Assembly: GCA_038203095.1 (NCBI GenBank)
Contig: JBBREH010000004.1
Location: forward strand, 1-51,935
Direction: 5' to 3'
DNA: 51,935 nucleotides
Origin: Candidatus Doudnabacteria bacterium
GTDB taxonomy: Bacteria; Patescibacteriota; Doudnabacteria; UBA920
Part shown: piece by piece, positions 11,053 through 26,235 of the stretch
Numbering within the stretch: position 1 is the first letter of the stretch
How the letters are laid out: each line of letters begins with the position of its first letter
Notes under the pieces: model-generated
Seen by the model: the letters and a program-made list of their open reading frames with translations, nothing else
The model's database searches: none
Told to the model about the DNA's origin: nothing
Translations under genes and position numbers: made by a program

Positions 11053-11079
11053 AAAGCTACAGAATTACAAATTATAATG

Positions 11080-11196
11080 CACTACAGAAAACTACAGAAT
11101 CTTTATCCAGGCACCTTCCAGGATAACCCGCAGGAAGGTGCTTGGATTTACTATCTTAACTAACATTTCACAAAGGTTCTGTAGTTTTCTGTAGTG
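11080..11196. repeat. Nested inverted repeat upstream of secA
   Basis: 20-bp perfect IR CACTACAGAAAACTACAGAA (11080-11099 / 11177-11196) enclosing TCCAGGCACCTTCC..GGAAGGTGCTTGGA. Confidence 0.8.
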
Positions 11197-11467
11197 TTCG
11201 CTGATTGTTTCCGTAGCTTATTATAACAGACTTCCGCCATAAAAAAAAGCCTTGAATTGAGCTCTGTAAGCATGTGGCGGCGGCCATTGGCCGCCATATT
11301 ATTAGCCATTTATGGGCAAACCCGACAACGCTTGGATTTATTTGCCTCCAAGTTTCGTAGTTTTTTGTAGTGTACCAAATGCTCCCTTATGTAGCACCCT
11401 TTACAACTCTCTCTCTTTGCTAATTTAACTTATCCTCCCGATGAGGATAGAGGATAAAGGAGGTCAA

Positions 11468-11773
11468 ATAACCAACCAGGTGACCAACTAGGAATTTCAA
11501 AGGCTCGCGGCCCAAAAGGCACACGAAATTTGGGAAAAATGGGAGCATGTACTACGGCTAAATTGCTGGAATAAAGCCGTTGCACAACTCCAAAAACAAT
11601 ACATGACGCCGTCCGGAACCTTTTGTGATGCGGCGGTTGCGCCCATTGCTTTTGGGATACATGAGGAGCGCCAAGAGGCGCACGCCCGTCAAGACTGGAA
11701 AGACTCGGAATACGCCGTAGGATGGATGCTCGCGTTTAACAAAACACGAGCTGAAGTGCGAGTTATATTGTAA
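11468..11773 (+). pseudogene. Disrupted ORF with two DUF2934-like repeats
   Basis: SD AAAGGAGGT, then ATA ACC AAC CAG GTG ACC AAC TAG, then an open frame EFQRLAAQKAHEIWEKW...W..A...IAFGIHEERQEAHARQDWKDSE. Confidence 0.5.
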
Positions 11774-12055
11774 GAGATTCTCTGCATATGGACCTGCTTT
11801 GGGTCTTAGAAGCTGAATCAATTCCGAACCATATAACGACCTGGGGCTTCTAATGACCAACAACAAAAACTCATCCCGCATCCGCAGCGCCCCACTTGCG
11901 GATTTTTTTATTAATTGAATCTGGTGCGCTGGCCAAATAATAGTGCTCGACCTTGTGGAGAGCCTATTATTTGACTGATAAAAAGAAAAAAATATCTTCT
12001 CCATAAAGTCGAAGAATATTTTTTTTGAAAACCGCAAAATTTGTAAGTGCCTACA

Positions 12056-12090
12056 AATAAAAACCGGCCCTAGTGTAACATTGGGCCGGT
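12056..12090 (-). terminator. Intrinsic terminator
   Basis: ACCGGCCC-loop-GGGCCGGT followed by TTTTATT on the minus strand. Confidence 0.7.
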
Positions 12091-12125
12091 GCTGAAGTAG
12101 AAATTGCGCCTGCAATCAGCTCAGG

Positions 12126-12164
12126 CTATGTCCAGTCCCCATCAAAACTCCATGCGGTATTCAT
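12126..12164 (-). CDS. 12-aa micro-ORF MNTAWSFDGDWT
   Basis: AAAGGAGG SD 4 nt before the ATG; terminator follows. Confidence 0.4.
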   Translation of the reverse strand: MNTAWSFDGDWT

Positions 12165-12263
12165 GAGGCCTCCTTTTTTTTTGATTGCCATTTAGGCTCT
12201 TTGCAGAGCCAGGAAAATGTTCTCTCTATTGAGACTCAAATTCCTCGCCCTGAATTTCCAGAG

Positions 12264-12458
12264 CTATTCGCTCGCCATAATTGATTCGGCCGCCCTGCCA
12301 CATGAGCAGGAGAGGCTACCATGAACCGCAATTTTGCACTTCGGGCAAAATAAAACATTAAGTTTGCCCTCCTGTAACATCAAGAGCAAAGAATACTGCA
12401 AACTCCCGTGCTTCGGGTTTCCCAAAGCTTCAATTGCTTTTTTTCTTCTATCGGACAT
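12264..12458 (-). CDS. Small hypothetical protein with a CPKC...CSC putative zinc ribbon
   Basis: AGGGAGG SD before MSDRRKK; CxxC and CxC motifs. Confidence 0.65.
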   Translation of the reverse strand: MSDRRKKAIEALGNPKHGSLQYSLLLMLQEGKLNVLFCPKCKIAVHGSLSCSCGRAAESIMASE

Positions 12459-12527
12459 ACTTCCTCCCTGGCGCAACTTGCGCCTTTTTTGATTGTGTTG
12501 AACCTCCCCACAAAATTGTGGGCAAAC

Positions 12528-12554
12528 AAAAAACCGGCCTCGCGTTGAGGTCGG
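12528..12554 (-). terminator. Terminator of the putative aromatic-amino-acid attenuator
   Basis: CCGACCTC-AACGC-GAGGCCGG-TTTTTT; its 5' arm and loop are complementary to upstream GCGTTGAGGCCAGAA. Confidence 0.7.
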
Positions 12555-12591
12555 AAGTTTAGAGTCGAATGCGATCTGTAATATCTGCGGC

Positions 12592-12681
12592 TTAATTTAA
12601 TCTGCGATCTTTCAACTCAAAATTTCTGGCCTCAACGCCCAGTGTAAAATAAAACCAAAAATTTTGTGTTAATTCGCTCAT
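12592..12681 (-). CDS. Putative leader peptide MSELTQNFWFYFTLGVEARNFELKDRRLN
   Basis: Five consecutive aromatic codons; lies between a promoter and a terminator/antiterminator pair. Confidence 0.65.
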   Translation of the reverse strand: MSELTQNFWFYFTLGVEARNFELKDRRLN

Positions 12682-12688
12682 TTCAAGT

Positions 12689-12715
12689 ATTGTAACAGAT
12701 GCGTATAAATTGTCA
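12689..12715 (-). promoter_or_regulatory. Sigma70 promoter of the FWFYF leader
   Basis: TTGACA-16bp-TACAAT with TGn extension, 7 nt before the leader ATG. Confidence 0.7.
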
Positions 12716-12786
12716 AATCGCGATCTGATTTTAGCCTTCTGCGAGTAATACATATCCTTTTCTGTAAAAAAATACTGCCGGCCCCA

Positions 12787-13008
12787 TTAGTGCTTGGGGC
12801 CGGCCTTGAACTTTGCGCGAGTGCAATATTGCAGGTCGCGAAGTTCAATCTGAAAAGCTTGCCCAGGTTCTTCCCCAGGCTGTCTCACTGCGCACTGCAT
12901 TACATTCCCAATATAATACAATTGGAACGTTTTCCCTTTCAAGAATGGAAAACGTTTTGTCATTTGAGGTTTTTTTGTGCGCAGGTACATTTTTACTTTT
13001 ATAATCAT
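12787..13008 (-). CDS. Hypothetical basic protein (73 aa)
   Basis: GGAGG SD before MIIKVKMYLRT. Confidence 0.55.
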   Translation of the reverse strand: MIIKVKMYLRTKKPQMTKRFPFLKGKTFQLYYIGNVMQCAVRQPGEEPGQAFQIELRDLQYCTRAKFKAGPKH

Positions 13009-13141
13009 TGGTCCTCCAACTTTTTTGCAGGCAAACCAGCACCTTTGCTCTGCGATGTAGATTTGTGCTGGCGGCCGGCTAAGTGCATTAGCCAATCGCC
13101 AAAACAAATTTTGCTTGACCTTCTTGGTTCGCCTTTTTCGT

Positions 13142-13172
13142 TAGCGTACTAGTACGTTGAAACGAAAAAGGA
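13142..13172. promoter_or_regulatory. Putative TrpR operator downstream of trpB2
   Basis: TAGCGTACTAGTACGTTGAAACGAAAAAGGA, identical to 15000-15030. Confidence 0.65.
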
Positions 13173-13180
13173 CTAATCTT

Positions 13181-13215
13181 TATTCAGGGGATGTATACCC
13201 TACATCCCCTGAATA
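13181..13215. terminator. 15-bp perfect hairpin after trpB2
   Basis: TATTCAGGGGATGTA-taccc-TACATCCCCTGAATA; no clear U-tract on the minus strand. Confidence 0.5.
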
Positions 13216-13237
13216 TTAATGACAACATAGAACATTT

Positions 13238-14545
13238 TTACTCTTCTGAAACTTTTAAATTTCCGTTGATATAATCCGCGTAGGCCTGCATATCAAAGTG
13301 ACCGTGGCCACTGAGGTTAAAGACTATGGCTTTAGACACACCTTCTTTTTTACATACCAACGCTTCATCAATGGCCGCCTTAATGGCAAAACAAGACTCC
13401 GGCGCCGGTACAATACCCTGGTTTTGGGCAAACATCACTCCGGCCGCAAACGCATCTTTGCTTTCCAATGCCCGAGCCTCAATGATTTTATGTTCATATA
13501 ATGCGCTAACTATGGGCGAAGCGCCGTGGTAGCGCAAACCGCCGGCATGAATCTTAGGAGGCATAAACTGAGCACCCAGGGTTTTCATTTTCATTAGCGG
13601 AGTCATTTGCGCGCTGTCACCAAAATCATATTCATATTTACCCTCAGTTAAGCTGGGACAAACTTTAGGCTCTACTGCTATAGCACGCAGGTCCGGCTTT
13701 TTGCCAGATAGTTTATAGGCCAAAAACGGAAAGGCCAAACCAGCAAAATTACTACCACCACCATGACAACCAATAATTATGTCGGGAAAGTCCCCGACTT
13801 TTTCCAACTGTTTTTTAGTTTCTAAACCAATAATGGTTTGGTGTAAAAGCACATGATTAAGCACGCTACCCAGCGCGTATTTGGTCCCTTCATGGGTAAC
13901 GGCGTCTTCTATTGCCTCGGAAATAGCAATACCTAAACTGCCGGAATTATTAACATCTTCCTCTAAAAGTTTTTTACCAAATTCCGTTAAGGAGCTGGGA
14001 GACGCAACCACCTTACCGTTGAACAACTGCATTAGAATTTTCCGATAAGGTTTTTGTTCAAAGCTAATTTTTACCATATACACCATACACTCAAGCCCAA
14101 AATAGTGGCAGGCAAAACTCAGCGCACTCCCCCACTGCCCGGCGCCAGTTTCTGTAGCCAGTCGTTTTACGCCCTCAGCTTTGTTATAAAAAGCCTGGGC
14201 TAACGCGGTGTTAAGCTTGTGACTGCCCACCGGACTAACACTTTCGTTTTTGTAATAGATTTTGGCCGGCGTGTCCAAAAGCTGCTCCAGCCGCCGGGCG
14301 CGGATAAGGGGCGTGGGTCGGTAGAGCATATAAGCTTTTCTAACTTCATCGGGAATAGCAATATACCTTTCTAAACTGACTTCTTGTTTAATTAATTCCA
14401 TGGGAAAAATTCTGGCCAAATCGGCGGGACCGATTGGCTGCTTGGTTTTGGGGTTTAGTGGCGGGTCTATTCCAAAAGGTAAATCGGCCAAGATGTTGTA
14501 ATAATGAGTGGGAATTTCATTTTCTTCCAATAAGATTTTAGGCAT
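13238..14545 (-). CDS. trpB2: Tryptophan synthase beta chain, type 2 (TrpB2), stand-alone
   Basis: GSHKLNTA (PLP lysine), ETGAGQWG, GGGSN, HAGGLRYHG, NLSGHG; 435 aa; no adjacent trpA. Confidence 0.95.
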   Translation of the reverse strand: MPKILLEENEIPTHYYNILADLPFGIDPPLNPKTKQPIGPADLARIFPMELIKQEVSLERYIAIPDEVRKAYMLYRPTPLIRARRLEQLLDTPAKIYYKNESVSPVGSHKLNTALAQAFYNKAEGVKRLATETGAGQWGSALSFACHYFGLECMVYMVKISFEQKPYRKILMQLFNGKVVASPSSLTEFGKKLLEEDVNNSGSLGIAISEAIEDAVTHEGTKYALGSVLNHVLLHQTIIGLETKKQLEKVGDFPDIIIGCHGGGSNFAGLAFPFLAYKLSGKKPDLRAIAVEPKVCPSLTEGKYEYDFGDSAQMTPLMKMKTLGAQFMPPKIHAGGLRYHGASPIVSALYEHKIIEARALESKDAFAAGVMFAQNQGIVPAPESCFAIKAAIDEALVCKKEGVSKAIVFNLSGHGHFDMQAYADYINGNLKVSEE

Positions 14546-14549
14546 AGAG

Positions 14550-14957
14550 TTATTTGTTATAAATTAATTGTTTTAATGAAATGTTAATTTTGGGTAATTT
14601 AAAGTTAAAATGATGCTTGGTCGTCTTCAAAGGAAAAAGTTGACGGTTTAAGGCCCTGTTTATTATGATTTTTTTGCTAACTGCGAAGTTTTTTCGGCGG
14701 CTGGTCACAGTGATTTTTGAAGATTGGTAATTAACCAACAAAACTGGAATTAGACTGCAGCCAGACTGTTTAACAACCTGCATCCGGTGGTGACCGTCTA
14801 AAACAACTTTAGATTTTAGATCAACCACTATGGGATAAGTGAATTTGCGGGCTTTGTGCAAGAACGCCGAAACTTTTTTTAATCGGTTCGGACTGGTTTG
14901 TTCGTGAGGTTTAAGTTGATTAATTTTAAAAAGTTTTACTTGGTTTATTAATGACAT
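14550..14957 (-). CDS. ParB/Srx-fold protein resembling SerK/SbnI serine kinases
   Basis: LKPHE, PIVVD, VLDGHHR, IPV..VNY and C-terminal LFPLKTTKH; no ParB HTH; ends 4 nt before trpB2. Confidence 0.75.
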   Translation of the reverse strand: MSLINQVKLFKINQLKPHEQTSPNRLKKVSAFLHKARKFTYPIVVDLKSKVVLDGHHRMQVVKQSGCSLIPVLLVNYQSSKITVTSRRKNFAVSKKIIINRALNRQLFPLKTTKHHFNFKLPKINISLKQLIYNK

Positions 14958-14999
14958 AAATTTAAATTCTCCTTCATTGTTTAGATTTTCATTTTACAG

Positions 15000-15030
15000 T
15001 AGCGTACTAGTACGTTGAAACGAAAAAGGA
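15000..15030. promoter_or_regulatory. Putative TrpR operator upstream of the ParB-like/trpB2 pair
   Basis: GTACTAGTAC core; identical 31-bp copy at 13142. Confidence 0.65.
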
Positions 15031-15188
15031 TAAACTACCCCGCAGCAAGCTGCAAGATATTAACTACAAATGCTTCCTATTTCCGGCGAGTGCATCCGAG
15101 CGAGAAATCTGTTATTAATAGACCTCTCAAATGCACTTGGGGTAAAAACTGCAGTAGAGCTGCGCAGTATTAAACCCAAAGGAGATAA
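15030..15188. mobile_element. Degenerate IS200/IS605-end-like palindromic element
   Basis: Starts AACTACCCCGCAGCAAGCTG like 15411; ends CTGCAGTAGAGCTGCGCAGTATT; interior differs. Confidence 0.55.
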
Positions 15189-15189
15189 T

Positions 15190-15224
15190 AAAAAAACACC
15201 CTCCGCAATAGCGCGGAGGGTGTT
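15190..15224 (-). terminator. trp attenuator terminator
   Basis: 12-bp stem AACACCCTCCGC/GCGGAGGGTGTT plus a T-tract, 12 nt after the leader stop. Confidence 0.85.
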
Positions 15225-15236
15225 CTAAAAGGAACT

Positions 15237-15314
15237 TTAGAATAACCAAAGCCGGCTTTGCGGGCGCAAAACCTGCCACCAAGAGACTGACTGGTTAAAT
15301 AGGAAATTTCTCAT
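15237..15314 (-). CDS. trpL: trp leader peptide MRNFLFNQSVSWWQVLRPQSRLWLF
   Basis: Tandem TGG TGG plus a third Trp; sits between a consensus promoter and a terminator, upstream of trpB2. Confidence 0.8.
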   Translation of the reverse strand: MRNFLFNQSVSWWQVLRPQSRLWLF

Positions 15315-15323
15315 AACTCCCCT

Positions 15324-15352
15324 ATTATACACCATCCATGCCTTCGTGTCAA
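15324..15352 (-). promoter_or_regulatory. Consensus sigma70 promoter of the trpL-trpB2 unit
   Basis: TTGACA-17bp-TATAAT, exact consensus. Confidence 0.88.
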
Positions 15353-15353
15353 C

Positions 15354-15370
15354 AGCGTACTAGTACACTG
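15354..15370. promoter_or_regulatory. Putative TrpR operator abutting the -35 of the trpL promoter
   Basis: CAGCGTACTAGTACACTG near-perfect palindrome. Confidence 0.75.
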
Positions 15371-15406
15371 AAACAGGAAAACATGAGTAAATTTCCGTGA
15401 TTCATA

Positions 15407-15548
15407 AATGAACTACCCCGCAGCAAGCTGACGAGGTATCAACTGCAAACTGCAACACCCCTCCCTAGCCCTCCCCATCAAGGGGAGGGAATACTGCAAG
15501 GGAACCGCAGCAAGCTACGGGGTATTGACCAAAACTGTGACAAATAAA
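15407..15548. mobile_element. IS200/IS605-end-like palindromic element, copy 2
   Basis: Inverted near-identical copy of 1153-1294. Confidence 0.65.
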
Positions 15549-15576
15549 TTGCGAGATATTTACAATTTAAGCTAAC

Positions 15577-15617
15577 TTGAACTAATTAACCGAATGTGGT
15601 AGTGTACTAGTACACTA
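15577..15617 (+). promoter_or_regulatory. trpR promoter with overlapping operator
   Basis: TTGAAC-17bp-TAGTGT with TGn extension; perfect 18-bp palindrome TAGTGTACTAGTACACTA at 15600-15617 covers the -10. Confidence 0.75.
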
Positions 15618-15637
15618 ACGTTTAAAGGAAATATTTT

Positions 15638-15928
15638 ATGCAATACAAACATGAGTATGGCGTGGAATTGGAACAGCTTTTGCGCAAGGTGGCCGGTGAT
15701 AAAAATAAAGGCCTACTGAGGGAATTTTTGTTTGATTTGCTTTCACCTAAGGAATATAAAGACTTAGCTGTACGCTGGCAAATTATTAAGGCTTTAGAAG
15801 CTAAAGTCCCCCACCGCGACATTGCCAAAAAACTCAAAGTCGGGGTAGCCACAATTAACCGCGGCTCGCGCGAACTGGCCAACAAAAAGGGTGGGTTTAG
15901 ACAAGCTGTGGATAAATATTTAAAATAA
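15638..15928 (+). CDS. trpR: Trp repressor family protein (TrpR/YerC-YecD)
   Basis: DLLSPKEY..LAVRWQII..L....PHRDIAKKLKVGVATINRGSREL HTH signature; divergent from trpB2. Confidence 0.88.
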   Translation: MQYKHEYGVELEQLLRKVAGDKNKGLLREFLFDLLSPKEYKDLAVRWQIIKALEAKVPHRDIAKKLKVGVATINRGSRELANKKGGFRQAVDKYLK

Positions 15929-25038: not shown

Positions 25039-26235
25039 CTATTTAATTAAACGGATAATTTTATTAATAGACTCCTTAAAATTCTGCTTTCCAAATTTTT
25101 TGGCTTGGTTTAGCAAAACGCTTTGTTGATATTTTTCCGGATGCCAATTCAGGATTAGATTTTTGAGTTCGGTTTTGACATTATTGTAATGCAGAGCATC
25201 GCCTTGCTTTACAGGCAGGCCGGGGGCCTGCACTACATTGGTAACAGCATTTCCGCCAAACAATTCTCCGGTTTCACCCGGTACAACTGTCTCCAGAGCT
25301 CCTCCTTGCGCAAAGGCCAGCGTTGCTGTGCCACAAGCCGCGGCTTCGAGCGGCATAAGGCCAAAATCTTCGATTTGCGGGTACAAAAAGCCCAGGGCGC
25401 CACTATACTGCTCGCGCAGTTCAGTATCTGATATACGGCCTAAAAAGCTAATGTTTGGTTTGGCAATCGATTGCAAATATTTTTCCTGGCGGCCGGTGCC
25501 GACAACATGCAGGGGCAAGCCGAGTTCGTTGAATATTTCAATAATCAGTTCGTTTTTTTTATGAGCTTGGAGACGGCCGGCGAGGAGAAAATAGTCGCTT
25601 TTTTCAATACCACCTCCCCCCGCTTCGCGGGGTACTCCTCCTTTAAAAGGAGGAGATGGCTGCACTGGTTTCCAAAACTCCGTATCAACAAACGGATACA
25701 CTACTGTACTAGTACACTCATAATAGGCTTGAATACGATTTTGGACTTCTTGGGAGTTGGCAATAAATTGAGTTACTCTTTGCGAACCTTTGTGGTCCCA
25801 TTTTTTCATCTGAACTAACAACCACTTTACAATCGGTCTAATAATAACCGGAACTTCCTGATTGACATAATTTTCATCTCCCCACAAAAATCTGGTTGGC
25901 GTGTGACAATAATTTACATGCCTGCATTTTTTTGGCACGCGAATATTTTTTATAAACCCCGAGCTGGAAGAAAGCACCACATCATAACCCCTAAAATCAA
26001 GCGACAAAACCGCAAAAGGAATTAACGGCAAAAAATACTGCAGACGCGGAATAAAATTATAAAAAACCTGAAGCCAGGAAGTCCGAATATCCCAACCCTG
26101 GTACTTGTCTTTTAACCGACGATCAAGCACCAAAGTAAAAACCGGTGCATCCGGAAACATTTCGTGGAAAGTATCTACAATTCTTTCCGCGCCGCCTAAT
26201 TGGGTAAAGCTGTCGTGGGCAAGGGCAATTTTCAT
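25039..26235 (-). CDS. Glycosyltransferase family 4 (WbaZ-like)
   Basis: GGAER, YCHTPTR, EDFGLMPLEAAACG; two in-frame repeat insertions (25185-25237, 25609-25660). Confidence 0.93.
   Translation of the reverse strand: MKIALAHDSFTQLGGAERIVDTFHEMFPDAPVFTLVLDRRLKDKYQGWDIRTSWLQVFYNFIPRLQYFLPLIPFAVLSLDFRGYDVVLSSSSGFIKNIRVPKKCRHVNYCHTPTRFLWGDENYVNQEVPVIIRPIVKWLLVQMKKWDHKGSQRVTQFIANSQEVQNRIQAYYECTSTVVYPFVDTEFWKPVQPSPPFKGGVPREAGGGGIEKSDYFLLAGRLQAHKKNELIIEIFNELGLPLHVVGTGRQEKYLQSIAKPNISFLGRISDTELREQYSGALGFLYPQIEDFGLMPLEAAACGTATLAFAQGGALETVVPGETGELFGGNAVTNVVQAPGLPVKQGDALHYNNVKTELKNLILNWHPEKYQQSVLLNQAKKFGKQNFKESINKIIRLIK

What the first reader, a model, noticed from the sequence alone, without database searches (positions are those of the whole stretch)
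13238..15928. Candidate two-enzyme indole-salvage pathway: SerK/SbnI-like serine kinase plus stand-alone TrpB2
Seen: a 135-aa ParB/Srx-fold ORF (LKPHE, LDGHHR, FPLKTTKH; no HTH) ends 4 nt before a TrpB2. No trpA or trpEGDFC is in the window, and the pair sits under Trp-specific control. Established: characterized TrpB2 enzymes condense indole with O-phospho-L-serine (OPS), and the ParB-fold proteins SerK (Thermococcus) and SbnI (Staphylococcus) phosphorylate free serine to OPS. Inference: the ORF normally labelled 'ParB-like nuclease' is a minimal serine kinase feeding TrpB2, giving Ser + indole -> Trp in a probable CPR organism otherwise expected to be auxotrophic. I do not know of this operon being described.
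Basis: partly seen in the sequence, partly recalled or inferred. Interest (0 to 1): 0.92.

Follow-up and report, generated by a model that had tools for sequence, protein, structure and literature searches.

The report
Mini serine kinase paired with TrpB2
A 135-residue relative of the known free-serine kinases sits in one tryptophan-regulated operon with a stand-alone TrpB2, and this pair recurs in many small bacterial and archaeal genomes, so it probably makes tryptophan from serine and scavenged indole.

Summary
A 135-aa ORF (14550-14957, -) ends 4 nt before a TrpB2 gene (13238-14545, -). A TrpR gene lies divergently upstream.

The ORF's only solved relatives at strong scores are the free serine kinases SerK and SbnI. 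A profile of 104 family members hits SerK at E 1.4e-27. The alignment shows SerK minus roughly residues 120-201, with the catalytic Glu, the DGHHR motif and the C-terminal KTT(K/R)H motif kept.

The pairing is conserved. TrpB2 lies within 400 bp on the same strand in 22 of 80 other loci, from CPR, Bacillota, DPANN, Bathyarchaeia and Nitrososphaerota, in both gene orders. A CysK/M-type enzyme is adjacent in 9 more loci, and fused forms exist.

Of 23 genomes with the pair, 21 lack TrpA above cut-off and none has a canonical SerC.

Regulation is Trp-specific in two independent ways. Here it is TrpR-type operators plus a tandem-Trp leader with a terminator. In Bacillota it is a T-box reading UGG.

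No activity was measured. I found no paper that describes the pair.

Verdict: a probable two-gene route, Ser to O-phosphoserine to Trp with indole. It is a new variant of known parts.

The parts
14550..14957 (-). Mini-SerK: 135-aa SerK/SbnI-like ParB/Srx-fold protein, the putative free L-serine kinase
   Evidence: ORF. NCBIfam SerK E 8.6e-10 and SbnI E 1e-9. PDB phmmer hits with E<=0.01 are only SbnI, SerK and 1vk1. The family profile hits SerK at E 1.4e-27 in two stretches.
13238..14545 (-). TrpB2 (TrpB-like PLP enzyme), the putative O-phosphoserine-dependent indole-condensing tryptophan synthase
   Evidence: PRK12391 708.6 bits and TIGR01415 658.3 bits, both above cut-off. The best solved relatives are the three Sulfolobus-type TrpB2 chains 6hul_B, 4qys_B and 6hte_B.
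15004..15013 (.). GTACTAGTAC palindrome (TrpR-operator-like) 46 nt upstream of the mini-SerK start, lying between a weak TTCAAC and TAAAAT (a possible second promoter, inferred)
15193..15226 (-). Intrinsic terminator of the leader (attenuator)
   Evidence: Terminator scan. Fold z-score -5.47. Conserved in L031 and L032, with 2 compensatory pairs.
15237..15314 (-). Leader peptide ORF MRNFLFNQSVSWWQVLRPQSRLWLF with tandem Trp codons
   Evidence: Translation. Leaders with WW at the same position occur in L032 and L031.
15254..15273 (-). Leader hairpin directly after the Trp codons
15324..15352 (-). Promoter TTGACA-17-TATAAT (12 of 12 consensus positions)
15357..15366 (.). GTACTAGTAC palindrome abutting the -35 box of the leader promoter
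   Evidence: It holds the same position in L031 and, as GTGCACTAGTGCA, in L032.
15604..15613 (.). GTACTAGTAC palindrome 25 nt upstream of the trpR start (probable autoregulation)
15638..15928 (+). TrpR-family repressor gene, divergent from the operon
   Evidence: Pfam Trp_repressor 68.5 bits (cut-off 27). TIGR01321 44.9 bits, below its cut-off of 67.25. Homologues hold the same divergent position in L031 and L032.
14964..15030 (.). Upstream copy of a 67-nt direct repeat that carries the operator; with its partner it brackets the two genes
   Evidence: family D1. Copies are 78% alike and the last 33 nt are identical.
13106..13172 (.). Downstream copy of the same direct repeat, just after the trpB2 stop
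   Evidence: family D1.

Best explanation
The two genes form a tryptophan-regulated, two-enzyme indole-salvage operon. The 135-aa protein is a pared-down member of the SerK/SbnI free-serine-kinase lineage. It keeps the nucleotide-binding ParB/Srx core with the catalytic Glu19, Asp54-Gly-His-His-Arg58 and the C-terminal Lys111-Thr-Thr-Lys-His115 segment. It has lost the roughly 80-residue insert of SerK. It phosphorylates free L-serine to O-phospho-L-serine (OPS). The genome has SHMT as a serine source but no SerC. TrpB2 then condenses OPS with scavenged indole to give L-tryptophan. Expression is switched off by tryptophan at two levels: TrpR bound to GTACTAGTAC operators, and a leader peptide with two adjacent Trp codons followed by a terminator. 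Shown here: the homology, the conserved residues, the gene pairing, the missing alternative pathways and the regulatory elements. Inferred: the kinase activity, the phosphate donor, the OPS preference of this TrpB2 and the source of indole.
For: Homology. The PDB hits of the ORF with E<=0.01 are only SbnI, SerK and the Pyrococcus homologue 1vk1. A profile of 104 family members hits SerK 5x0b at E 1.4e-27. Profile positions 4-102 align to SerK 17-119 and positions 90-129 align to SerK 202-241. SbnI scores 3e-13, canonical ParB/Noc 3e-4 or worse, and sulfiredoxin about 0.5. In that 104-sequence alignment E19, H57, R58 and H115 are invariant, and H18, D54, G55, H56, K111 and T112 are kept in at least 90% of sequences. 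E19 aligns with the Glu that depositors mutated in SerK entries 5x0e-g (A) and 5x0j/k (Q).

Context. TrpB2 (52-85% identical) lies on the same strand within 400 bp in 22 of 80 loci from other genomes: 11 as serK-trpB2 and 11 as trpB2-serK. CysK/M-like enzymes are adjacent in 9 of 80. PALP is the top family among same-strand neighbours, 27 of 68; the next family has 5. Fusions of mini-SerK to CysK/M are P0014, P0080, P0187, P0188 and P0190. In a 401-genome sample of the phylum, 2 of 3 genomes with TrpB2 above cut-off have mini-SerK directly upstream.

Need for the kinase. TrpA is above cut-off in only 2 of the 23 genomes with the pair. serC_1 is above cut-off in 0 of 23. The window's own genome has only three PALP enzymes, IlvA, ThrC and TrpB2, and it has SHMT.

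Regulation. See the observation check for the window. In addition, T-boxes lie directly upstream of trpB2-miniSerK in 7 Bacillota loci (100 bits in L062; 42-81 bits in six others). The specifier position reads UGG in 5 of the 5 alignments shown.

Literature. TrpB2 enzymes use O-phospho-L-serine (statement citing Busch 2014 in PMC11917138, passage seen). SerK is a free-serine kinase feeding an OPS-using CysK (PMC5120207, passages seen).
Against: No assay exists for any member of the 130-aa family. The protein scores 38 bits against SerK and SbnI models whose cut-offs are 380 and 350, and it lacks about 80 residues of SerK (roughly 120-201). An archaeal SerK-like protein bound CTP and not ATP in a published screen (PMC12704722, passage seen), so the donor is open. 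Family members are also fused to sugar-nucleotidyltransferase, hexapeptide-transferase, FNR-like, SET and DNA-glycosylase domains, and 49 of 80 loci have no PALP neighbour within 400 bp, so the family may act on more than serine. No TrpB2 fusion was found. The OPS preference is documented only for a few TrpB2 enzymes, not this one. The serC test is weak: its control detected 12 of 14 reference genomes at E<=1e-3 and only 4 above cut-off. MAG completeness for the 22 other genomes was not reported.
Confidence: 0.7

Rival explanations
1. The small protein is a non-catalytic partner of the PLP enzyme. It could be an allosteric activator that stands in for the missing TrpA, or a nucleotide-sensing regulatory subunit. 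TrpB2 would take serine or OPS from elsewhere.
For: It has lost about 80 residues of SerK. It overlaps or abuts its PLP partner and is sometimes fused to it, as subunits often are. ParB-fold proteins can act as nucleotide switches (PMC12704722, passages seen). SbnI also has a regulatory role, according to its PDB and NCBIfam name.
Against: The residues kept across 104 sequences are those of the kinase active site: the Glu mutated in the SerK structures, DGHHR and KTTxH. The same protein pairs with two different PLP enzyme families, and what those families share is use of OPS, not a common surface. Genomes with the pair have no canonical SerC to supply OPS.
Confidence: 0.12
2. It is an active phosphotransferase but its reaction differs. 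It might use another substrate or nucleotide, form a different activated serine derivative, or run in the direction OPS to serine, as proposed for DUF1015 SerBK.
For: Fusions to NTP_transferase and hexapeptide-transferase domains occur. A SerK-like protein bound CTP (PMC12704722). GapMind 2026 proposes a distant SbnI-like family that works in both directions (PMC13759103, passages seen).
Against: For the TrpB2- and CysK/M-linked members, OPS is the one metabolite both partner families are known to use. OPS to Ser makes no sense in genomes with no SerC to make OPS. The closest characterised relatives both phosphorylate free serine.
Confidence: 0.13
3. It is a ParB-like nuclease or DNA-binding protein unrelated to tryptophan, and its adjacency to trpB2 is fortuitous.
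For: The Pyrococcus SerK homologue was once reported as a ParB-like nuclease (PMC5120207, passage seen). Weak profile hits to ParB-domain nucleases occur at E 3.5e-4.
Against: There is no HTH and no Pfam ParB_N hit. Adjacency recurs in 22 of 80 loci in both orders across two domains of life. The pair is co-regulated by Trp-specific elements of two unrelated kinds. The gap is 4 nt here, and the genes overlap by 4 nt in several other loci.
Confidence: 0.03

Closest known systems
SerK (TK0378), ADP-dependent free L-serine kinase of Thermococcus kodakarensis (PDB 5x0b and others)
   Same: It is the best solved relative of the family profile (E 1.4e-27). It shares the ParB/Srx core, the K-P-H-E catalytic Glu, the DGHHR motif and the C-terminal KTT(R/K)H segment. 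It makes OPS for an OPS-using fold-type-II PLP enzyme (CysK) (PMC5120207).
   Different: SerK has 242-244 residues. The protein here has 135 and lacks the stretch that aligns to SerK at about 120-201. SerK homologues were reported only in Thermococcales and Desulfurococcales, with no clear bacterial homologues. The short family is in many bacterial and archaeal phyla and in oomycetes. SerK is not described next to trpB2.
SbnI-SbnA of the staphyloferrin B operon (Staphylococcus aureus)
   Same: A ParB-fold free-serine kinase is encoded in the same operon as the fold-type-II PLP enzyme that consumes its OPS. SbnI E20 and D58 align with E19 and D54 here (numbering read from the alignment; that these two residues are the essential ones is recalled, not seen in a call).
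   Different: SbnI has 254 residues with an extra C-terminal region and a regulatory role. Its product feeds diaminopropionate and siderophore synthesis, not tryptophan. The profile E-value is 3e-13, weaker than for SerK.
TrpB2 enzymes (Sulfolobus and Thermotoga type), OPS-dependent tryptophan synthases proposed as indole-salvage enzymes
   Same: The window's TrpB2 scores above both NCBIfam TrpB2 cut-offs, and its best solved relatives are 6hul_B, 4qys_B and 6hte_B.
   Different: In the characterised organisms trpB2 accompanies a full trp pathway. A 2007 survey found no conserved trpB2 neighbourhood apart from trp operons (PMC1854888, passage seen). Here trpB2 is the only trp gene and has a fixed kinase partner.
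Enterobacterial trp operon control (TrpR repression plus trpL leader-peptide attenuation)
   Same: It has a TrpR-family protein, palindromic CTAG-centred operators at the promoters, autoregulation-like placement at trpR, and a short leader ORF with two adjacent Trp codons followed by a terminator.
   Different: It controls a two-gene salvage operon in a probable CPR bacterium. No Rfam leader family matches. An antiterminator alternative was not established. That the E. coli operator resembles this palindrome is recalled, not tested.
DUF1015 'SerBK' (GapMind 2026)
   Same: It is another recently proposed distant SbnI-like serine kinase tied to serine and phosphoserine metabolism (PMC13759103).
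   Different: It is a different family and size. It is linked to serA/serC, is proposed to replace SerB, and has no link to TrpB2.

Membership tests
SerK / SbnI free L-serine kinases (NCBIfam NF053625, NF033589) | Whole-protein score above the curated cut-off (380 / 350 bits) | tested here: not met
   38.2 and 38.1 bits, matching only model positions of about 4-98 out of 244/254.
SerK / SbnI free L-serine kinases | ParB/Srx core with the catalytic Glu in the (K)PHE motif | tested here: met
   E19 aligns with SerK E30 and SbnI E20. It is invariant in 104 family members. The SerK PDB mutants carry A or Q at this position.
SerK / SbnI free L-serine kinases | Asp-Gly-x-His-Arg nucleotide/phosphate motif | tested here: met
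   LDGHHR 53-58 aligns with SerK IVDGHHR and SbnI VIDGVHR. D54 is kept in at least 90% of sequences, and H57 and R58 are invariant.
SerK / SbnI free L-serine kinases | Full C-terminal domain (SerK about 120-201) | tested here: not met
   The family profile aligns to SerK 17-119 and 202-241 only; the stretch between has no counterpart.
SerK / SbnI free L-serine kinases | C-terminal KTT(R/K)H segment | tested here: met
   Profile positions 90-129 align to SerK 202-241 at 29.7 bits. K111 and T112 are kept in at least 90% of sequences and H115 is invariant.
SerK / SbnI free L-serine kinases | Phosphorylates free L-serine to O-phospho-L-serine | not testable with these tools
   This needs an enzyme assay.
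TrpB2 (NCBIfam PRK12391 / TIGR01415) | Score above the curated cut-offs and below the TrpB1 cut-off | tested here: met
   708.6 bits against 366 and 658.3 against 518.85. TIGR00263 (trpB) scores 152.6 against 392.45.
TrpB2 | Prefers O-phospho-L-serine over L-serine as co-substrate with indole | not testable with these tools
   This is known for some TrpB2 enzymes (Busch 2014, as cited in PMC11917138). I could not read that paper, so the phosphate-binding residues were not checked.
TrpR repressor (Pfam PF01371; TIGR01321) | Score above the family cut-off | tested here: met
   Pfam 68.5 bits against 27. The narrower equivalog TIGR01321 is not met, 44.9 against 67.25.
Leader-peptide transcription attenuator (trpL type) | Short ORF with tandem codons of the regulating amino acid, followed by an intrinsic terminator | tested here: met
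   WW at codons 12-13 in the window, L032 and L031. Terminator and hairpin found.
Leader-peptide transcription attenuator (trpL type) | Mutually exclusive antiterminator structure | tested here: inconclusive
   The MFE and consensus folds show the two hairpins only. No alternative pairing was established.
Canonical ParB partition / Noc proteins (TIGR00180, Pfam ParB_N plus HTH) | ParB_N match plus HTH DNA-binding domain | tested here: not met
   No Pfam family at E<=0.1. Solved ParB/Noc chains score only 3e-4 to 4e-2 even with the family profile.

The most novel reading that the evidence does not exclude
The 130-aa proteins are a widespread, previously uncharacterised minimal class of free-serine kinase. 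They act as a portable 'O-phosphoserine supply' module that docks genetically, and perhaps physically, onto whichever OPS-dependent PLP enzyme a reduced genome retains. With TrpB2 the result is tryptophan from indole; with CysK/M it is cysteine. This would explain why TrpB2 evolved to prefer OPS. It would also show that many CPR, DPANN and other small-genome organisms scored as Trp auxotrophs can make tryptophan from indole released by neighbouring cells.
Probability: 0.45. Interest if true: 0.82.

Novelty: new variant of a known kind. Interest (0 to 1): 0.72.

Why it matters
Since TrpB2 was found to prefer O-phosphoserine, its physiological role and the source of that substrate have been open. 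A 2007 survey found no conserved gene neighbourhood for trpB2 outside trp operons (PMC1854888).

A dedicated kinase partner that is co-regulated by tryptophan in several lineages gives a concrete and testable answer. If it is right, three things follow:

- A two-gene tryptophan salvage route should be added to metabolic reconstructions. Genomes with only trpB2 plus this gene would no longer be strict Trp auxotrophs when indole is available.
- A catalytic core of about 130 residues would be defined for the serine-kinase branch of the ParB/Srx fold.
- A small kinase plus TrpB2 pair would be available for making tryptophan analogues from serine and indoles.

It also documents TrpR plus leader-peptide attenuation in a probable CPR bacterium.

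Tried and rejected
T-box or other known RNA leader in the window: none at gathering or at E<=1. The weak Leu/Phe-leader hits there are below threshold.

First look at the phylum. The six best other mini-SerK loci (L002-L007) showed no TrpB2 within 1.5 kb, which at first looked like non-conservation. It was an artefact of receiving one locus per genome. The second copy in G096 (contig C75) does sit upstream of TrpB2, and the wider scan found 22 pairs.

Other recurrent trp genes near the pairs: none among the 25 most frequent families of 113 neighbours in 21 loci. Only 25 of 117 families were shown, so single occurrences could be hidden. L037 was left out because my gene caller failed on it.

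Fusion of mini-SerK to TrpB2: none among 48 long forms or among the long forms I checked. I scanned 20 of the long or odd-length hits by Pfam, not all of them.

A maximum-likelihood tree of the 87 mini-SerK sequences, labelled by partner, was started, but the script machine was lost. Whether TrpB2 pairing arose once or several times is therefore not known.

Structure prediction, fold search, complex prediction, the ESM Atlas and the earlier-findings tool gave nothing because they were unavailable. No structural statement in this report rests on a model.

Expression: no RNA holder was listed. Three DNA runs of one study hold the stretch. One Logan contig spans 14069-15029 without a difference, but it may come from the same sample as the assembly.

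Literature. Searches found no paper linking SerK/SbnI-type kinases with TrpB2. Busch 2014, Nagata 2017 and Verstraete 2018 are not held (for the last), so their residue-level details are recalled or inferred from alignments. Supplements were closed and could hold gene-neighbourhood tables I did not see.

Full report
WHAT IS THERE

On the minus strand a 135-aa ORF (14550..14957) is followed after 4 nt (TAA-CTCT-ATG) by a 435-aa ORF (13238..14545). The larger protein is a TrpB2. NCBIfam PRK12391 scores 708.6 bits (cut-off 366) and TIGR01415 scores 658.3 (cut-off 518.85). The classical trpB model reaches 152.6 bits against a cut-off of 392. Its best solved relatives are 6hul_B, 4qys_B and 6hte_B.

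The small protein has no Pfam hit at E<=0.1. It does match the NCBIfam models for the free serine kinases SerK (E 8.6e-10) and SbnI (E 1e-9), over its first 85 or so residues and far below the cut-offs. Against all PDB sequences, the seven hits with E<=0.01 are SbnI, SerK and the Pyrococcus SerK homologue 1vk1. A second short stretch aligns the C-terminus, including KTTKH, with the C-terminus of SerK.

Divergently upstream lies a 96-aa TrpR-family gene (15638..15928), with Pfam at 68.5 bits against a cut-off of 27.

THE FAMILY

A full HMMER scan of 1.84 billion representative proteins with a seven-member profile found 4596 proteins at E<=1e-3, 1537 at E<=1e-10 and 89 at E<=1e-30. Most are stand-alone proteins of about 125-140 aa.

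In an alignment of 104 of them, E19, H57, R58 and H115 are invariant. L15, H18, P42, L53, D54, G55, H56, P71, Y77, K95, K111 and T112 are kept in at least 90%.

That profile hits SerK 5x0b at E 1.4e-27 in two stretches. Profile 4-102 aligns to SerK 17-119, and profile 90-129 aligns to SerK 202-241. SbnI follows at 3e-13, ParB-domain nucleases, ParB and Noc at 3e-4 to 4e-2, and sulfiredoxin at about 0.5.

The family is therefore SerK with roughly residues 120-201 removed and everything else kept. The Glu of K-P-H-E is the position that carries A or Q in the deposited SerK mutant chains 5x0e-g and 5x0j/k. Reading the SbnI alignment in native numbering puts E19 and D54 on SbnI E20 and D58. That those two are the residues shown to be essential in SbnI is my recollection, because the paper is not held.

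JGI/IMG already auto-names three of the short proteins I looked up 'L-serine kinase (ADP)'. NCBI gives no name or a generic one.

IS THE PAIRING CONSERVED?

A pattern scan of one genome per prokaryotic species with a four-member alignment gave 145 relatives. The best 80 were kept as loci.

TrpB2 side:
- tblastn with the window's TrpB2 found a 52-85% identical TrpB2 in 22 of these 80 loci. All are on the same strand and within 400 bp of the mini-SerK match.
- Eleven have the order serK-trpB2. By record title these are Doudnabacteria, Gracilibacteria, two Gottesmanbacteria, Nitrososphaerota, two Bathyarchaeia, Diapherotrites, an unclassified bacterium, an unclassified archaeon and a 0.8-Mb MAG labelled Gammaproteobacteria.
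- Eleven have the order trpB2-serK. These are nine Bacillota/Clostridia MAGs and two DPANN archaea.
- Gaps run from a 4-nt overlap to about 360 nt.

CysK/M side:
- A CysK/M-type enzyme lies within 400 bp in 9 of the 80 loci, one of them fused. Four more loci have one at 0.4-2.6 kb.

Unbiased neighbour tally:
- Among the 68 same-strand neighbours within 300 bp, PALP is the top Pfam family with 27 members. The next, Tubulin/FtsZ, has 5.

Fusions:
- Mini-SerK fused to CysK/M is seen in P0014, P0080, P0187, P0188 and P0190.
- No fusion to TrpB2 was seen.

From the TrpB2 side, in an even sample of 401 genomes of the window's phylum:
- TrpB2 is above cut-off in 3 genomes.
- Two of these, the window's genome and G096, have mini-SerK directly upstream.
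- The third, G072, has none detected.
- G115 carries a divergent TrpB-like gene at 354 bits in a different context.

Among 113 further neighbours of 21 TrpB2-linked loci, no other trp biosynthetic family is among the 25 most frequent. Trp_repressor and class-I W/Y tRNA synthetase each occur twice.

WHY A KINASE WOULD BE NEEDED

The window's genome (1.27 Mb, 58 contigs, rated 100% complete):
- It has no match to TrpA, IGPS, Chorismate_bind, Glycos_transf_3 or PRAI.
- It has no match to serC_1.
- Its best SerB-model match scores 64 bits against a cut-off of 144.
- Its one 2-hydroxyacid dehydrogenase sits next to a glycerate 2-kinase. It scores best as glyoxylate reductase, below the PGDH cut-off.
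- Its only PALP enzymes are IlvA, ThrC and TrpB2.
- SHMT is present at 545.8 bits.
Free serine is therefore available, but the usual route to O-phosphoserine is not.

Across the 22 other genomes with the pair:
- TrpA is above cut-off in 2, both Clostridia MAGs.
- serC_1 is above cut-off in none. Seven have weak matches of 28-49 bits.
- Caveats: MAG completeness was not given, and the serC control detects 12 of 14 reference genomes at E<=1e-3.

REGULATION

GTACTAGTAC occurs five times in the window against 0.31 expected; 0 of 100 shuffles reached five. The copies lie as follows:
- 15604-15613, 25 nt before the trpR start.
- 15357-15366, abutting the -35 box of a perfect TTGACA-17-TATAAT promoter at 15352-15324.
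- 15004-15013, 46 nt before the mini-SerK start.
- 13146-13155, after trpB2.
- 25706-25715, inside an unrelated ORF.

The perfect promoter is followed by a Shine-Dalgarno-like AGGGGAG and a 25-codon ORF, MRNFLFNQSVSWWQVLRPQSRLWLF. A hairpin comes directly after the two Trp codons, and then a strong terminator at 15226-15193. The fold z-score is -5.47, and 0 of 200 shuffles fold as well.

The two closest relatives keep the whole arrangement: a divergent trpR, an operator at the -35 box, and leaders MKNYGLKSVLVWWQALCPRSRFCVI and MEILLITLNQIWWQVLHPQSRFWC with WW at the same codons. Both hairpins are kept, and the terminator has two compensatory pairs.

Independently, trpB2-miniSerK is preceded by a T-box in Bacillota. 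L062 scores 100 bits, above the gathering score of 93. L045, L038, L047, L075, L080 and L084 score 81 to 42 bits, with full-length model alignments and E<=6e-6. The two remaining Bacillota loci are cut at the contig end. In all five alignments I displayed, the triplet after the conserved GAA of the specifier loop, followed by a purine, is UGG. That this position is the specifier is recalled from the T-box literature.

Two unrelated Trp-sensing systems therefore control the same gene pair in distant lineages. That is hard to reconcile with the small gene being unrelated to tryptophan.

MECHANISM PROPOSED

Free serine is phosphorylated by mini-SerK, with the donor unknown. TrpB2 replaces the phosphate with indole to give tryptophan. 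The operon is repressed by TrpR with Trp and attenuated when charged tRNA-Trp is plentiful.

The published parallels are SerK feeding an OPS-type CysK in Thermococcus (PMC5120207, passages) and SbnI feeding SbnA. TrpB2's use of O-phospho-L-serine is stated in PMC11917138, citing Busch 2014.

I put 0.70 on this. The main reservations are these:
- The missing 80-residue segment.
- The absence of any assay.
- A report that one archaeal SerK-like protein bound CTP and not ATP (PMC12704722).
- The family's other partners (NTP-transferase, hexapeptide transferase, FNR-like, SET and DNA glycosylase fusions).
- The 49 of 80 loci with no PALP gene within 400 bp.

NOVELTY

The parts are known: SerK/SbnI chemistry, TrpB2, TrpR and leader attenuation.

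What I could not find in print is the short kinase family as such, or its operon with TrpB2. Seven full-text searches covered it.
- The original SerK paper reports no clear homologues outside four archaeal genera.
- The 2025 ParB-fold survey has no mention of tryptophan, pyridoxal or cysteine synthase.
- GapMind 2026 describes a different SbnI-like family.
- A 2007 study found no conserved trpB2 neighbourhood outside trp operons.
Closed supplements and papers not held could change this.

I rate it a new variant of a known kind, of good interest because it is directly testable and changes how 'auxotrophic' small genomes are read.

NOT DONE

No family tree was built, because the script machine was lost. 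There is no expression evidence.

Noticed in passing
window 13106-13172 and 14964-15030: A 67-nt direct repeat (78% alike, last 33 nt identical, carrying the GTACTAGTAC palindrome) brackets exactly the mini-SerK-trpB2 pair, at a spacing of 1858 nt. The closest relative, L032, has no second operator between the attenuator and mini-SerK. This suggests a local duplication or cassette rearrangement in this lineage. Logan contigs break at both copies.
   Followed up: partly
window 12787-13008 (-), terminator 12777-12804: A 73-aa ORF with a GGAGG ribosome-binding site lies downstream of the fourth GTACTAGTAC copy (13146-13155) and ends at a strong terminator. It has no Pfam family. It may be another TrpR-controlled gene of unknown function.
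   Followed up: partly
window 15406-15495; also 15033-15052 and 15411-15430: A short element in the trpR-operon intergenic region is very high-copy in the sediment metagenomes: contig depth reaches about 440 against about 10 around it, with many loose ends. A 20-nt piece of it occurs twice in the window. It may be a small dispersed repeat shared by several organisms.
   Followed up: partly
window 11053-13237: About 2.2 kb has no convincing long ORF but has several promoter-like and terminator-like sites and a 70-aa Cys-rich ORF (12264-12476). Rfam finds nothing here.
   Followed up: no
window 25706-25715: A fifth exact GTACTAGTAC lies inside a 398-aa ORF (25039-26235, -) that has no link to tryptophan. 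It is probably a chance occurrence.
   Followed up: no
proteins P0157-P0186, P0189, P0198: Oomycetes (Phytophthora, Pythium, Albugo, Aphanomyces, Saprolegnia and others) encode 480-760-aa 'ParB/Sulfiredoxin domain' proteins that match the mini-SerK profile at E about 1e-57 to 1e-60. The two that I saw in the representative search (P0008, P0010) each showed two matched stretches. This is a eukaryotic branch of the family with unknown function.
   Followed up: no
proteins P0070, P0152, P0200, P0202, P0192, P0193, P0046, P0105, P0140: Mini-SerK domains are fused to sugar-phosphate nucleotidyltransferase, hexapeptide acyltransferase, FNR-like reductase, SET and pyrimidine-dimer glycosylase domains. 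These hint at uses of the module beyond OPS supply.
   Followed up: partly
same-strand neighbours in loci L031-L110: After PALP, the most frequent neighbours of mini-SerK are Tubulin/FtsZ (5 of 68) and protein-L-isoaspartate methyltransferase (3 of 68). I did not work out in which lineages.
   Followed up: no
L118 (G115:C4) 1402-2742: A divergent TrpB-like gene (354 bits, just under the TrpB2 cut-off) in another CPR genome is followed by a class-IV-aminotransferase-like gene and an asparagine-synthase-like gene, with no mini-SerK. It may have a different chemistry.
   Followed up: no
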